Below are positions 1-8,428 of a DNA stretch of 9,747 nucleotides, piece by piece (positions within the stretch are counted from its first letter, which is position 1; the number at the start of each line of letters is the position of its first letter). Below the pieces are notes generated by a model, which ran no database searches, was not told where the DNA came from, and saw only the letters and a list, made by a program, of their open reading frames with translations. Location: positions 1 to 9,747 of the forward strand of contig JBHGNT010001335.1 in the NCBI GenBank assembly GCA_043228905.1, given 5' to 3'. The position numbers and the translations under genes are program-made. The stretch comes from Azolla caroliniana (lineage: Eukaryota; Plantae; Polypodiophyta).

Positions 1-1149
1 AGCTCCTGTCATCCCGCAAGCTTTCAAGATGCTGACAAAGGTTATTCCATTTGGCGAAAGTCCTTCCCTTTGCATCTGTTTGAAACAGTTCAATGCTTCA
101 TCACATTGCCCCCATTGAGCATATCCTGCAAGTAAAGCAGACCATGACACTACTCCACGTACAGGAAGCTCGTTTAACACTTGCTTTGCTTTAGCAAGAA
201 ATCCACATTTAGCATACATATCAATTAATGCATTACCAAGAACCATGTCCTTCTGTAGAAGCCCCCTACGAACTACTTCACAATGAATCTCCTTGCCCTT
301 TTCCATAGCTTCTATGCTTCCACATGCCTTTAAAATGCTAGTGAGAGTTACTACATTTGGAGAGAGACCATCATCTTGCATCCATTCCAAGCAGTCTAAT
401 GCTTCATGGAATTGCCCCTCATCAGCAAATCCTGAAATCAATGTCGACCATGAAACCACATCCCGAATAGGAAGCTCTTTAAGCACTTGTCGTGCTTTTA
501 CAAGCACACCACATTTGACATACATATCAACCAAAGCATTACCAAGAATGACATCCTTCTTCAGCAAGCCATTACTTACAATCTTGTCATGAATCTCTTT
601 TCCTTTTTCAATAGATCCAATACTGCCACAAGCCTTCAAAATGCAAGCAAAAGTGACACAATCTGGAGAGAGACCCTCACTTTCCATCTGTGCAAAACAA
701 TTCAATGCTTTGTGACCTTGTCCATGTTGGACATACCCTGCAATAAGGGCAGACCAAGAAACTACATTGCGGACGGTAAGTTGCTCTAGCACTTCTTGTG
801 CTTTAGAAAAAACCCCACATTTGGCATACATACTTATCAAACTGCTAGCCAGAAAAGGACTCTTTTCAAGTAAGCCTCTTCCCTGAATATCAGCATGTAG
901 TCTACTGCCTTTATCAAGATCCTTCTTCTTGGCGCAAGCCTTCAGTAAGGTAATAAATGCAAAATCCTCCTCTTTGTTCATATTGTTAATTTTTTTGCAA
1001 GGTTTCTCCATCATTAGCTCTTCATATGTTGAGAAAATAATTGGTCTCCTCCTCAGCTCTTCATATACCCAACATGGATTGTAACATAAATCAATCCACA
1101 AAGACTCATGATTATTTATGTGTTTAATATCTGGCAATGTAGAGTTTTT
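1..1149 (-). CDS. Large exon of a PLS-class PPR protein gene (probable organellar RNA-editing factor), 3'-truncated by the window edge; begins with the second half of a PDF motif
   Basis: Manual translation of the minus frame (codons starting at multiples of 3) has no stops: KNSTLPDIKHINNHESLWIDLCYNPCWVYEELRRR...DFAFITLLKACAKKKDLDKGSRLHADIQGRGLLEK-SPFLASSLISMYAKCGVFSKAQEVLEQLTVR-NVVSWSALIAGYVQHGQGHKALNCFAQMESEGLSP-DCVTFACILKACG... It contains three L-S-P triplets (about 36+31+35 aa, 306-nt period) plus the start of a fourth L motif. The acceptor TGTTCCTACAG|AAA is at 1150/1149, phase 0. The PPR call is near certain; the exon boundary is inferred. Confidence 0.93.
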
Positions 1150-1539
1150 CTGTAGGAACACAACAGAAATCATATTCTTGTTATCATGCGGAAAATGAAC
1201 CAAACACATCCAAAAGACATCTATATAATCAACCAATGGAAATGGATCTATTGTTGGTTCTACTGTAAAACTGTGCTCAGGACTGGGAGAAAGGTTCCCT
1301 TGTTCATGAAATGCCGATGGGGATTTTACAATTGCCAATCCAAAATATTTTATAAAATGAACACAATATGGTGGAATATATAGATTTCCTACTAAATTCT
1401 TAAAGATTTGCACTACTTCCTCGTAATATCCTATTGTTTGCATATGAGAAGTAAAACTAACCAAATAGTAAAAACAAAGAAAAATATTAATGCATTTATA
1501 GCAACCCAAGTGATTATACACAACCTGCAAGAAAATGGT

Positions 1540-2700
1540 GCCATCATATGACAAAAAAGGATGCCTATGAGGAAGCACAGTATTGGGATTTATATATTCA
1601 TGAGCAAAAAATTCACCACTGTTTGACAGTATATCAGAGAAATCTGATCCTGATCTAGAAACCACAATTATCACATTTCTACATGAAGAGCCAGTATTAT
1701 GTCCATCACCAATCCCTGCAACACAACCCTCAGAGCCACACCTTCATCTGATACAACAGGAACCTTCAGTATGTATGAGTGTCTGAATATAGAGGACTAG
1801 AAGCTGAACACCTCAAATGTGGCAAGGACACTTGCTACTACTTGCACACATATTCAATAGACTCTTGGTAGAGAGCCTTCACAACGCATGGACCATGCAA
1901 ACAACGCTGCTTATCCATAAATCAGGAGATTCAATCAAACCTGGGAACTATCGAGCCATCATCATTGGCCATTCACTTGCCAAAATCTATAGCGTGTGCT
2001 TGAAGTGGAACTGAGAACTTATCCCAAGGTAGAAGAGATATGATCCTTAGGATAAGTAGGATTCAAACAAGCCTTCTTTACCATTGGCCACATCTTTACG
2101 TTAAGTTGCTTGGTGGACCAAGTAAAGGTACAAAAGAAAAGAGAATCTGGCTTCTTTGAGGATTTTCTACAAGATTTCCTTGTATCCAGGGAATGTTTTC
2201 ATCAGAAACTCCACGCACTTGAAATCCCCCTGATATGATATCAGTGAGTATGTGCATTATATGAGCAAGTGTTGGGAAGAGCTTGATGTCGAAGGAGGTT
2301 ATCAAGAGTCATAACAAGCACCATTAGCGTGAAGCAAAGTAACCTAATTACATTTTTCTTTACCTTGATAGTAAAATCTTGGTCTCTGAATATCTTAATA
2401 CTCTGGATGATTTTTCCCAAAAACAACATCTCACAGTGAACCCATGAAATATAAGGCCATGATCTTTCACACATCTGCACCAACTCGCCCACAAGTTGTT
2501 GTCACTCTAGAAGGAGGCCAAGTTGAAGAAGTGGATTAAAGTTTCCCTAAAGTCACATTTACAAGCACCATTAGGCACTTCTCTATGATCCAAGATGCCA
2601 AAGATTGACCCACTCAAGAATCTACAACTCTAGCAAAGTTAGGACAACAATGCCAACAAGCATTCTTCCAGGTACCTCATACCATGGTTATTCGACATAT
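1540..2700 (+). mobile_element. Degenerate non-LTR retrotransposon (LINE, RTE-like) reverse transcriptase relic, antisense to the host gene
   Basis: RT motifs appear in the expected order: GLEAEHLK (~1795), LAHIFN, W...IHKSGDSIKPGNYRAIIIGHSLAKIY (~1890-1990), G*VGFKQAFFTIGHIFTL (~2050-2103, compare QAGFR..STIDHIFTL), STISVKQS (2317-2340, compare GVKQG) and KAMIF (~2453-2467). It has stops and frameshifts and no recognisable YADD. Boundaries are approximate. Confidence 0.8.
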
Positions 2701-3254
2701 GCAATCATGTGTGCTCCAAGCCTCCCCATTCACATATGGATATAAATAGAGAATCAACTAGTCATGATGTTGTCTTTGACGTGACAAAACCTTAACACTT
2801 CCCGTGCAGCTGCCCAGCCTACAAACACTAGACATATGCAAAATTCTTACCGGTGTACATTGCCCTTCAATAGATGACGGAAAAGGCTGACCTGGTCCAC
2901 TTTGGTTACCACACGAGACACAAAGGGAATCAGATACCACAGACTTCTTCCATAGGACAGTATCTCCACAAACAATGTGCAGATGAGTCACCATAGGATA
3001 ATAATACATCATCATCCTCTCTCTCCCTAGGTACAATGTCTTTCCTTAAAAAAATTTAGTATTGGGCATATATTAGATCTTTCATTAGTCAATTTAGCCT
3101 TTTGAATATGTTAATTTGGCATTCGTTTTGATACACGTAACTTCACATGCTACATGAAAATGTTTCACTTTTGGTCCCATAGATCATATTTGAACTCCAA
3201 GGGAAGATATTAAAATCCATGCATTTATCTCTGCCTTTCTGAGGATGCCAAAAT

Positions 3255-3278
3255 ATCATCATCATCATCATCATCATC
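3255..3278. repeat. (ATC)8 microsatellite
   Basis: Seen directly in the sequence. Confidence 0.95.
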
Positions 3279-3312
3279 TCTCTCGCACACATAACCACGA
3301 GCTCATACTTAC

Positions 3313-3396
3313 CTGTCTATAAATATAGCGCCACAGAGAAGGATCCTTGAAGTAATCCTTCCACAAGAGATCCATAATGATCCCTCGTCCCACCAT
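3313..3396 (-). CDS. Upstream coding exon segment of the PPR gene, encoding the first half of the PDF motif (MVGRGIIMDLLWKDYFKDPSLWRYIYRQ)
   Basis: A consensus donor CAG|GTAAGT at 3313/3312 is phase 0 and matches the phase-0 acceptor at 1149. LWKDYFKDPSLW resembles LWxxFFxxPxxW of the OSB PDF motif. The first in-frame ATG is at 3396 and the frame is open from 3438. The exon probably starts at the acceptor TGTTGCAG|G at 3544/3543. The true start codon is uncertain. Confidence 0.72.
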
Positions 3397-3403
3397 GCCG
3401 GAA

Positions 3404-3538
3404 TCATAAACTTCTGTCAGGTGGTTTCCAGAGTGCAATTAGGCGTCTCCTCCATGTCCACACGGAAGCTGCGTGTCTTCCGGTCTTCAAAAGGCAGTGC
3501 TTTATTCGCCAGCAGGGAGCCTGTCTTCGAATCACCAT
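3404..3538 (-). other. 44-aa ORF resembling an organellar targeting peptide, out of frame with the PDF-PPR coding frame (frameshifted N-terminus or uORF)
   Basis: MVIRRQAPCWRIKHCLLKTGRHAASVWTWRRRLIALWKPPDRSL* has 8 R, 3 K and only one acidic residue. Its ATG is 5 nt inside the 3543 acceptor and its stop is 7 nt before ATG 3396. Confidence 0.5.
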
Positions 3539-3622
3539 TGAGCCTGCAACAACAGGGATTGTGCATTTTCTGATTCTCCCTTAGGTAATTAGCAGTTTTG
3601 AACACAGCATGTAAAGTATTAA

Positions 3623-7192: not shown

Positions 7193-7467
7193 ACATTGTC
7201 AATTTATGGCAATTACCACATCATAGACAACATACGTGTGTAGAATGACAGTATTATTATGTACATGTTTGTATGTATACAAACCCAATCAATGTCTTTC
7301 CGATCAGAGGTAGCTACAAGGAGAATGAATCAAAGCTGCTGATTAAAATGTTTCAGCAGATTAATCATTGACATGAACCGGGGATGTAAATAAATCAGAA
7401 AGGTTACTACGGATATGGATATGGATCTTAGTAACCTTCAAATTGTACGGATATGTACAGAACAGGG

Positions 7468-7791
7468 TCATGCCATTAAGGAGGAGAGGTATGATCGACA
7501 CCTTATACTATTCTGCACAGTATCCATGGCGTCTGTACTTCTTGTATAACTGAGACCTTGATTGCACTCAAATCCTTCGACTCGAACAGGAGATGGCGCT
7601 GCCATGGCTGGGTACATCGGATTCAACAGCTGGAGATGATGGAATTCTGCATCCTGCGCCATGGGGTTTCTCGCTCTGCAAGGTGGAGAGCCTGTGAAGA
7701 TTAGATCTTTAACTCCGTATGAGCTCTTGCCTCTCACATCATCATCATCATCAGAAGCAAGCGCTGTATCTCTCTCTGCAGAAGAAAGCTC
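7468..7791 (-). CDS. Exon 3 of the same gene
   Basis: The acceptor GACAG|GAG at 7792/7791 is phase 0 after a 90-nt intron. Encodes ELSSAERDTALASDDDDDVRGK...FTGSPPCRARNPMAQDAEF...SPVRVEGFEC...LMA*. Total CDS is 269+118+324 = 711 nt. Confidence 0.85.
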   Translation of the reverse strand, partial: ELSSAERDTALASDDDDDVRGKSSYGVKDLIFTGSPPCRARNPMAQDAEFHHLQLLNPMYPAMAAPSPVRVEGFECNQGLSYTRSTDAMDTVQNSIRCRSYLSSLMA

Positions 7792-7881
7792 CTGTCATGT
7801 AACAGGAGTAGCACCAAATTAAGCACCATTCCCTGCACTCGCAAAAAACAACGATTTGGTTATACATAATATTGGAACTAC

Positions 7882-7999
7882 CTTGTTCAGGAAAATATCC
7901 AAGATCTCATGGCTTGCTCCGCATGATTTAGACATTGCGCTTACATCGTCATTAACGCTGCCAGCATACGCTGCATGAGCGTCGACAATAGACATGGCA
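7882..7999 (-). CDS. Exon 2 of the same gene
   Basis: Branch point TACTAAC at 8034-8028 and acceptor TACAG|T at 8000/7999, phase-compatible with exon 1. Encodes ...GASHEILDIFLNK, compare family ELLDIILxK. The donor AAG|GTAGTT at 7882/7881 is phase 0. Intron 1 is 160 nt. Confidence 0.8.
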
Positions 8000-8159
8000 C
8001 TGTAGACCACACGAATATCAACAGTATGTTAGTATAACATTCATGGGTATAAGTAGCACAGATGGTGTAACTACAGAGAATCTCTCCTTCCTGCATCGAT
8101 GGATATCAAAATAATGCATAATATACAAATCCTGTTTTACGTCTTGATTGCATATATAC

Positions 8160-8428
8160 CTTTGCGATCTTAACGTACTCCTAATCATCGTGGGAGGCCT
8201 GATGGATAGAAGCTCTGCAGAGACTGAGAAAAGGTTATTGGACGCCATAGCCGGGCTCTGCTGAAGTATAAGAGAAGACCTCTGTGGCATAGGGCGGATC
8301 ATGTTGAGCCTGTGATCTTCCCGAATAGTGGTCGAGCTTTGCGGATGACATGTCGAAGCCTGATGGAGAATTTGAGGGGAGGAGGGTGAGGATGCATGCG
8401 TTGCCACATTGCTACTGCTGCGCCTCAT
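8160..8428 (-). CDS. Exon 1 of a 236-aa plant-specific uncharacterised protein (GSPPxRxxNP / VRVEGF family, At5g16110/At3g02555-like)
   Basis: ATG at 8428. IRPMPQR resembles the family CPKPRR motif. The donor AAG|GTATAT at 8160/8159 is phase 2. Confidence 0.75.

What the first reader, a model, noticed from the sequence alone, without database searches (positions are those of the whole stretch)
1..3396. OSB-type PDF ssDNA-binding motif fused to a PLS-PPR array, hidden by a 2.2-kb intron
Seen: splicing CAG|GTAAGT (3313) to CTACAG|AAA (1149) gives LLWKDYFKDPSLWRYIYRQ|KNSTLPDIKHINNHESLWIDLCYNPCWVYEEL, followed about 30 aa later by L-S-P PPR triplets. Established: the ~50-aa PDF motif of plant organellar ssDNA-binding proteins (OSB1-4/pTAC9) has the pattern LWxxFFxxPxxWWDNRxxKxNxxxPDFKHKxxxExLWxxxxxxPxWV, and PLS-PPR proteins are sequence-specific organellar RNA-editing factors. 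The conserved W/P/K/H positions align across the junction, but WDNR is changed to RYIY and PDF to PDI. Inference: this is a chimeric protein that could tether an RNA-editing factor to nucleoid ssDNA or R-loops, or one whose PDF motif is repurposed or decaying. I do not know of a description of this architecture but cannot exclude one.
Basis: partly seen in the sequence, partly recalled or inferred. Interest (0 to 1): 0.85.

Follow-up and report, generated by a model that had tools for sequence, protein, structure and literature searches.

The report
Fern PPR with eroded PDF domain
This fern gene joins, across a 2.2-kb intron, a worn-down copy of the small single-stranded-DNA-binding PDF domain of plant organelle OSB proteins to an RNA-reading PPR array; the same fusion, not found in the papers searched, marks a large old family of likely RNA-editing factors in mosses, clubmosses and ferns, and in this copy the domain has likely lost its nucleic-acid grip.

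Summary
Confirmed. The intron (3312-1150, GT-AG, phase 0) is spliced out in one contig from a close relative. The joined peptide scores 34.4 bits (E 8e-13) on an HMM built only from OSB PDF motifs; the best of 2000 shuffles scored 10.5. Three L-S-P triplets follow; the C-terminus lies outside the window. The gene is one of a large family: 90 stored PDF+PPR proteins, named ones from Sphagnum, Ceratodon, Selaginella, Diphasiastrum and ferns, always with PDF first. Their PDFs group apart from OSB PDFs (98/92), and 8 of 80 moss-type loci have an intron at the identical site, pointing to one early land-plant fusion. This copy is degenerate: 5 of 14 core residues are lost, and there is no presequence. 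It is likely a PLS-PPR editing factor whose PDF no longer binds nucleic acid; binding is untested. Ten literature searches found no description. This scan reported the architecture before in peat moss (three notes). New here: the shared intron, erosion and short leaders in ferns, and PDF motifs in phage replication modules.

The parts
3397..3543 (-). 5' untranslated part of the first coding exon; candidate acceptor before 3543; three out-of-frame upstream ATGs (3538, 3455, 3407); in-frame TAA at 3441-3439
   Evidence: sequence; relative's contigs cover 3316-3478 without gaps; the 3543 acceptor is inferred
3313..3396 (-). first coding exon part, residues 1-28: 8-10 residue leader (ATG 3396, second ATG 3375) and first half of the PDF motif
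   Evidence: covered by X3 and X5 contigs
1150..3312 (-). 2163-nt phase-0 GT-AG intron, five codons ahead of the PD signature; same site as introns in 8 moss-type PDF-PPR loci
   Evidence: (X5 joint)
1150..1715 (-). stretch retained when an alternative acceptor at 1715 is used; out of frame, stop after 14 codons
   Evidence: X3 joint 1714-3312 with CT..AC ends; translation
1054..1149 (-). second half of the PDF motif, residues 29-60 (PDI in place of PDF; LW and PxW kept)
967..1053 (-). 29-residue linker (family median 27)
1..966 (-). PLS-class PPR array: three L-S-P triplets and the start of a fourth L; runs off the window, so E/DYW domains cannot be seen
   Evidence: Pfam PPR_2 E 7.5e-54; motif parse

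Best explanation
This is a spliced fern gene for a PLS-class PPR protein, likely an organellar RNA-editing specificity factor, that carries at its front a degenerate PDF domain inherited from a likely single fusion in early land plants; the domain likely served the ancestor as a sequence-independent anchor on single-stranded nucleic acid and has likely lost that grip in this copy. Shown: splicing in a relative, homology to OSB PDF motifs, the PLS array, a family in mosses, lycophytes and ferns, a shared intron site, and loss of core residues. Inferred: in intact members the PDF (1-3 copies) binds ssDNA at transcribing nucleoids, or single-stranded RNA, and raises the local concentration or dwell time of the PPR array, which supplies sequence choice; an E/DYW domain, in cis or in trans, edits. 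In ferns the family expanded and the PDF became optional in many paralogues. Here the Trp/Pro scaffold is kept, but the invariant Asp, Arg, Lys, Phe and Lys are replaced, so the protein would act through its PPR array alone.
For: Splice joint in X5. OSB-only HMM 34.4 bits against a shuffle maximum of 10.5; most PPR-fused motifs score 58-79. Of 242 stored PDF proteins, 90 have PPR, 84 an OB-like domain, 68 neither, none both; PDF precedes the array in 90 of 90; 10 of 61 long members end in a DYW-type tail. Named OSBs (Populus OSB1, Euphorbia OSB3) were recovered by the fern-PPR profile. All 58 PPR-fused motifs in the tree fall on one side of a 98/92 branch; the window motif sits in a fern group (97/85) on a long branch (0.69). 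Intron at the same codon in 8 of 80 moss-type loci, about 4 genes. 5 of 14 core residues lost; 7 of 24 fern motifs lost 3 or more, against 1 of 48 lycophyte, 0 of 4 moss and 8 of 167 OSB motifs. Exons differ from the relative by 3.5% (48/1382), intron pieces by 7.2% (96/1332). PDF is reported as sufficient for ssDNA binding in OSB1 (PMC6963530, passages). Phage PDF proteins lie beside exonuclease, helicase and primase genes in 3 of 3 loci scanned.
Against: No binding data exist for any PPR-fused PDF, and which PDF residues touch nucleic acid is unknown; that the lost residues are the binding ones is inferred from conservation and charge. OSB1/OSB2 prefer ssDNA to RNA (PMC4166229, passage), so an RNA anchor is not established. 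The protein has no visible presequence, so organelle import is uncertain. The splice rests on one low-depth contig from a relative. That relative keeps the invariant Lys (Q28K) and the only other listed change in the motif is silent, which hints at some constraint. The tree has 56 columns and an unsettled bootstrap, and motifs were chosen with a fern-derived profile, which biases both the grouping and the fern-versus-lycophyte erosion counts. The C-terminus is unseen.
Confidence: 0.6

Rival explanations
1. The PDF fold has been repurposed in ferns as a protein-binding or import module. It sits at the extreme N-terminus where other PLS-PPRs carry a presequence, so it could route the protein to an organelle or nucleoid through a partner, or bring DYW-less members together with a deaminase. 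The window copy would then be functional with a changed surface.
For: Leaders before the PDF are 20 residues or fewer in 12 of 24 fern proteins and 40 or more in 1 of 24, against 3 and 27 of 45 in Diphasiastrum and 1 and 23 of 30 in moss-type loci. The window keeps 9 of 14 core residues, mostly Trp/Pro/Leu. Frame and splice are kept in the relative. Only 10 of 61 long members end in a DYW-type tail.
Against: Fern motifs decay to very different degrees, some with internal deletions, as relaxed selection would give. Many fern PLS-PPRs show no motif: 14 of 120 hits had one in their first 200 residues, though gene models may miss the first exon. Short leaders may partly reflect incomplete gene models.
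Confidence: 0.2
2. One reading: this very protein still tethers an editing factor to nucleoid ssDNA or R-loops through its PDF motif.
For: True homology; Trp residues and the PD and KH positions kept; many PPR proteins are nucleoid-associated (PMC10226603, passage).
Against: Asp, Arg, Lys, Phe and Lys that are 92-100% conserved in both OSB and PPR-fused motifs are all replaced, and the window's residue is seen in at most 1% of 279 motifs at each of these columns. No presequence.
Confidence: 0.1
3. The gene is a young pseudogene or a non-organellar, selectively neutral paralogue of the fern PPR expansion, and neither part does useful work.
For: Degenerate PDF, no presequence, three upstream ATGs and an unproductive alternative acceptor.
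Against: 383 codons open without a stop, regular PLS motifs with ordinary code residues, exon divergence half that of the intron (Fisher p 1.6e-5; some intron pieces may come from other loci).
Confidence: 0.1

Closest known systems
OSB1-OSB4 organellar ssDNA-binding proteins (Zaegel et al. 2006, not held; described in PMC6963530, PMC4166229, PMC13393729)
   Same: Homologous ~50-residue PDF motif; 1-3 copies per protein in the family, as in OSBs.
   Different: No OB-fold; PDF is N-terminal, not C-terminal; followed by a PLS-PPR array; this copy has lost 5 of 14 core residues; no presequence.
PLS-class PPR (E/E+/DYW) RNA-editing factors of land plants
   Same: L-S-P triplets of 36/31/35 residues; best structural matches of a fern homologue are designed PLS-PPRs such as 5IZW (E 5e-3); relatives carry E and DYW domains.
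   Different: An extra N-terminal PDF domain that the reviews and surveys I searched do not mention (they list RRM, SMR, LAGLIDADG, NYN, CBS, SAP, bZIP, MORF and zinc-finger fusions). Its own E/DYW state is unknown.
PPR fusions with a second nucleic-acid-binding domain (PPR4 with RRM, pTAC3 with SAP, PPR-SMR)
   Same: A PPR array joined to an accessory nucleic-acid module.
   Different: Those are P-class and few per genome; this is PLS-class and expanded to dozens of paralogues in Diphasiastrum and ferns.

Membership tests
OSB proteins | OB-fold/SSB-like central domain | tested here: not met
   Only 8-10 residues precede the PDF; Pfam finds no SSB in the window pieces but does in P0218, P0260, P0276; no stored protein has both OB and PPR.
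OSB proteins | one or more PDF motifs | tested here: met
   34.4 bits, E 7.9e-13 on the OSB-only HMM, but degenerate.
OSB proteins | PDF motifs placed at the C-terminus | tested here: not met
   N-terminal here and in 90 of 90 PPR-fused proteins.
OSB proteins | N-terminal organelle transit peptide | tested here: not met
   In-frame TAA 45 nt upstream of the ATG; the relative's contigs run ungapped over 3316-3478. No targeting predictor was available.
PDF motif | invariant Pro-Asp-Phe signature and W-x-D-x-R-x-x-K core | tested here: not met
   Pro and Asp kept; Phe, Asp, Arg and two Lys replaced; 9 of 14 core columns kept. The relative keeps one of the Lys.
PDF motif | binds single-stranded DNA | not testable with these tools
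   Needs a binding assay.
PLS-class PPR editing factors | tandem P-L-S triplets | tested here: met
   Three L-S-P triplets and a partial L.
PLS-class PPR editing factors | C-terminal E1/E2 with or without DYW | not testable with these tools
   The frame runs off the window and no genome is held. Relatives have E and DYW.
PLS-class PPR editing factors | organelle location | tested here: inconclusive
   No visible presequence; short leaders are common in fern members; location needs experiment.
PLS-class PPR editing factors | sequence-specific RNA binding and editing | not testable with these tools
   Code residues look ordinary; no organelle genome of the species was on hand.

The most novel reading that the evidence does not exclude
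A large share of the RNA-editing PPR proteins of mosses, lycophytes and ferns descend from one early fusion with the OSB ssDNA-binding PDF domain, which ties editing to transcribing nucleoids. In ferns the domain moved to the extreme N-terminus in place of a presequence and was repurposed as a targeting or partner-binding module, of which this gene is a working example. The domain itself is older than plants and also serves in phage replication modules.
Probability: 0.2. Interest if true: 0.85.

Novelty: new variant of a known kind. Interest (0 to 1): 0.6.

Why it matters
PPR editing factors are usually drawn as presequence, repeats and E/DYW. A conserved DNA-binding module on dozens of paralogues in the heavily editing seed-free plants would link organelle genome maintenance to RNA editing and make coupling of editing to transcription testable by deleting one 50-residue domain. 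It appears overlooked because Pfam has no PDF model, the 2026 OSB survey kept only proteins with both PDF and OB domains (PMC13393729), and an intron splits the motif, so gene callers drop its first half. Degenerate fern copies such as this one are natural loss-of-function controls. The domain could also be tried as an add-on for synthetic PPR editors.

Tried and rejected
No whole genome is held, so the 3' end of the gene could not be read. No RNA holder is on record for this stretch; the six runs listed are guessed to be RNA. Runs X1 and X4 gave no contig across the junction, and X2 had no depth at either side of it; this is lack of cover only. Fusion with the upstream gene through a donor at 7501 was considered and dropped: X2, X3 and X4 contigs run on through 7500 to about 7300-7410. 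The presequence-like 44-codon upstream ORF at 3538 is out of frame and the relative has no gap in 3316-3478 that would join it. A word-based search with the second half of the motif among long proteins found nothing (4 candidates). ESM Atlas gave only scores under 0.8, at chance level. AlphaFold models the PDF as a small confident helix-strands-helix domain (pLDDT about 90-97); Foldseek, VIA-align (best Z 4.3) and a sequence search of the PDB gave no clear match, which does not show the fold is new. A scan of prokaryote genomes gave one 11-residue match, not meaningful. A test of PDF self-pairing was not run because the queue was full. Chance resemblance is rejected. Literature: ten searches found no description; the library lacks most subscription papers, including Zaegel 2006 and, from recall, Gutmann et al. 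2020, whose text or supplements could mention the fusion.

Full report
Observation. The minus strand has a donor after 3313 and an acceptor before 1149, enclosing a 2163-nt phase-0 GT-AG intron. Downstream the frame is open for 383 codons to the window edge, with strong Pfam PPR hits (PPR_2 E 7.5e-54) that parse as three L(36)-S(31)-P(35) triplets and part of a fourth L, starting at 966. The nearest named relatives are from Adiantum capillus-veneris and Ceratopteris richardii, so the window is from a fern; no genome is held.

Splicing. Six runs were listed, all guessed to be RNA; five were laid. One 341-nt contig of X5 (organism C, depth 3.6) joins 978-1151 to 3316-3478 with one letter between. 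That is the predicted intron removed, plus a substitution that turns residue 28 from Gln to the Lys that is invariant in the family. A contig of X3 (same organism) instead joins the donor to an acceptor at 1715, which is out of frame and stops after 14 codons. X1 and X4 did not cover the junction. Exon pieces differ from organism C by 3.5% (48/1382) and intron pieces by 7.2% (96/1332); I picked these pieces from cut tables, and some intron pieces may come from other loci. The spliced gene at 8428 to about 7300 is separate.

Is it a PDF motif? Of the 120 best PPR relatives listed (of 378), 5 carry a whole canonical motif at the N-terminus and 9 a half or remnant. A profile of the five found 77 proteins by the word-based search and 1083 cluster representatives at E up to 0.001, of which 150 were returned. 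Among 367 stored proteins, 242 had the motif: 90 with PPR, 84 with an OB-like domain, 68 with neither, none with both. Of ten looked up, two are named OSBs, Populus OSB1-like and Euphorbia OSB3. An HMM from 167 motifs of 68 OB+PDF proteins alone (16 near-duplicate cluster members dropped) scores the joined window peptide at 34.4 bits, E 7.9e-13. The halves score 11.0 and 23.1, and the best of 2000 shuffles 10.5. The homology is real.

The family. Named PDF+PPR proteins come from Sphagnum, Ceratodon, Selaginella, Diphasiastrum (1-3 PDFs), Adiantum, Ceratopteris and Pteridium. Only one of the 'eukprot' proteins was looked up as Pteridium; I treated the others with the same naming style as ferns, and four unnamed rows in the tree were labelled by resemblance. 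I saw no liverwort, hornwort or seed-plant member among the named hits, but only part were named. The PDF precedes the array in 90 of 90; 10 of 61 long intact members end in a DYW-type tail. In metagenome contigs, 45 of the 80 loci returned (of 401 confirmed) have the whole motif and PPR in one frame. Eight others, about four genes whose motifs resemble the Sphagnum ones, have a 138-150-nt GT-AG intron in phase 0 five codons before PD, the same site as the window's intron. A fern genomic ORF, P0110, also starts at that site. In a tree of 103 motifs (all 25 fern and 6 moss rows, 26 lycophyte rows, 45 of 167 OSB rows drawn at random, and the window), the PPR-fused motifs form one side of a 98/92 branch, and the window motif lies in a fern group (97/85) on a long branch. 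With 56 columns and a fern-derived profile this is consistent with one origin, not proof. Together with the shared intron, one fusion before mosses and vascular plants split, followed by intron loss in retroposed copies, is the simplest history (inference; retroposition of PPR genes is argued in PMC13386178, passage).

This copy is eroded. Fourteen columns are at least 80% conserved in both OSB (167) and PPR-fused (112) motifs. The window keeps nine (four Trp, three Pro, the Asp of PD, one Leu) and loses five: Asp, Arg and Lys of the first half, Phe of PDF, and the Lys after His. Its 34 bits compare with 58-79 for most PPR-fused motifs. Three or more core residues are lost in 7 of 24 fern motifs, 1 of 48 lycophyte, 0 of 4 moss and 8 of 167 OSB motifs; the search route favours finding degenerate fern copies. 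Only 8-10 residues precede the motif, with an in-frame stop 45 nt upstream. Short leaders are typical of ferns (12 of 24 at 20 residues or fewer) but not of Diphasiastrum (3 of 45) or moss-type loci (1 of 30). How fern members reach an organelle is therefore unexplained.

Mechanism. Reviews state that the PDF motif of OSB1 suffices for ssDNA binding (PMC6963530, passages; PMC6451138, passages) and that OSB1/2 prefer ssDNA to dsDNA or RNA (PMC4166229, passage). AlphaFold gives a small self-contained domain ahead of the PPR solenoid with no clear match in the PDB. PDF-like motifs also end small phage proteins in 15 viral loci; in the 3 loci whose neighbours I scanned, the gene lies directly before a DnaB-like helicase and, in two, directly after an exonuclease, where ssDNA-binding proteins usually lie (recalled). 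This supports a portable ssDNA-binding module. I infer that intact members use it as a non-specific anchor at nucleoids or on single-stranded RNA while the repeats choose the site, and that here the anchor is lost (0.6). Rivals: repurposed targeting or partner module (0.2), still binding ssDNA (0.1), pseudogene or neutral paralogue (0.1).

What is known. It is not an OSB (no OB-fold, PDF at the other end) and works like a PLS-PPR factor; E/DYW cannot be checked. Ten searches found no description. I saw term-search passages, not whole texts, of PMC6963530, PMC13386178, PMC9459714, PMC11897456, PMC4166229, PMC6451138 and PMC10226603; the abstract, outline, passages and a supplement term search of PMC13393729 (no 'PPR' in its text or three supplements; it required both PDF and OB domains); and zero-hit term searches of PMC13263110, PMC12548569 and bioRxiv 10.64898/2026.10.24.761589. 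Zaegel 2006 is not held, and most subscription papers and bioRxiv supplements were out of reach, so a passing mention cannot be excluded. Three earlier notes of this scan report the same architecture in peat-moss DNA; I confirmed moss, lycophyte and fern members myself, but not liverworts.

Verdict. A real, spliced, degenerate fern member of an apparently undescribed and ancient PDF-PLS-PPR family: a new variant of a known kind, interest 0.6. The family deserves the attention; this copy is most useful as a natural loss-of-function control and as evidence for the shared intron.

Noticed in passing
L081:2626-3198, L085:2308-3120, L086:2725-3204 (15 viral loci L081-L095): Small phage proteins end in a PDF-like motif after an Ala/Pro linker; in the three loci scanned the gene lies directly before a DnaB-like helicase, after an exonuclease (2) or a DNA methyltransferase (1). 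PMC4166229 calls the motif confined to green plants.
   Followed up: partly
proteins P0209, P0210, P0215, P0217, P0221, P0223 and others: Unnamed proteins made of 4-11 tandem PDF motifs behind a hydrophobic N-terminal leader, with neither OB nor PPR domain; source organisms not looked up.
   Followed up: no
window 1150-1743 (-): The last 594 nt of the intron have no stop in the PPR frame (0 of 20000 shuffles, 1 of 20000 Markov simulations), yet give no Pfam hit and the relative's contigs have frameshifting gaps there. Unexplained.
   Followed up: partly
window 3404-3538 (-): 44-codon upstream ORF rich in Arg and hydrophobic residues, resembling a mitochondrial presequence, but out of frame with the PDF-PPR reading frame.
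   Followed up: partly
window 7300-8428 (-): Separate three-exon gene (about 236 codons, Ser-rich); its introns 8159-8000 and 7881-7792 are spliced in contigs of runs X1-X4; no significant Pfam hit for the two pieces scanned.
   Followed up: partly
window 1800-2800 (+): Short frames in the intron look to me like remains of a LINE reverse transcriptase on the opposite strand (recalled motifs); Pfam and PDB searches gave no support.
   Followed up: partly
P0181 (Ceratodon purpureus M758_3G008300): An intact PDF-PLS-E-DYW protein in a genetically tractable moss: a good first test case.
   Followed up: no
P0282, P0340: Two OSB-like fragments begin their PDF match five residues before PD, which hints that some OSB genes may share the intron site; not checked on DNA.
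   Followed up: no
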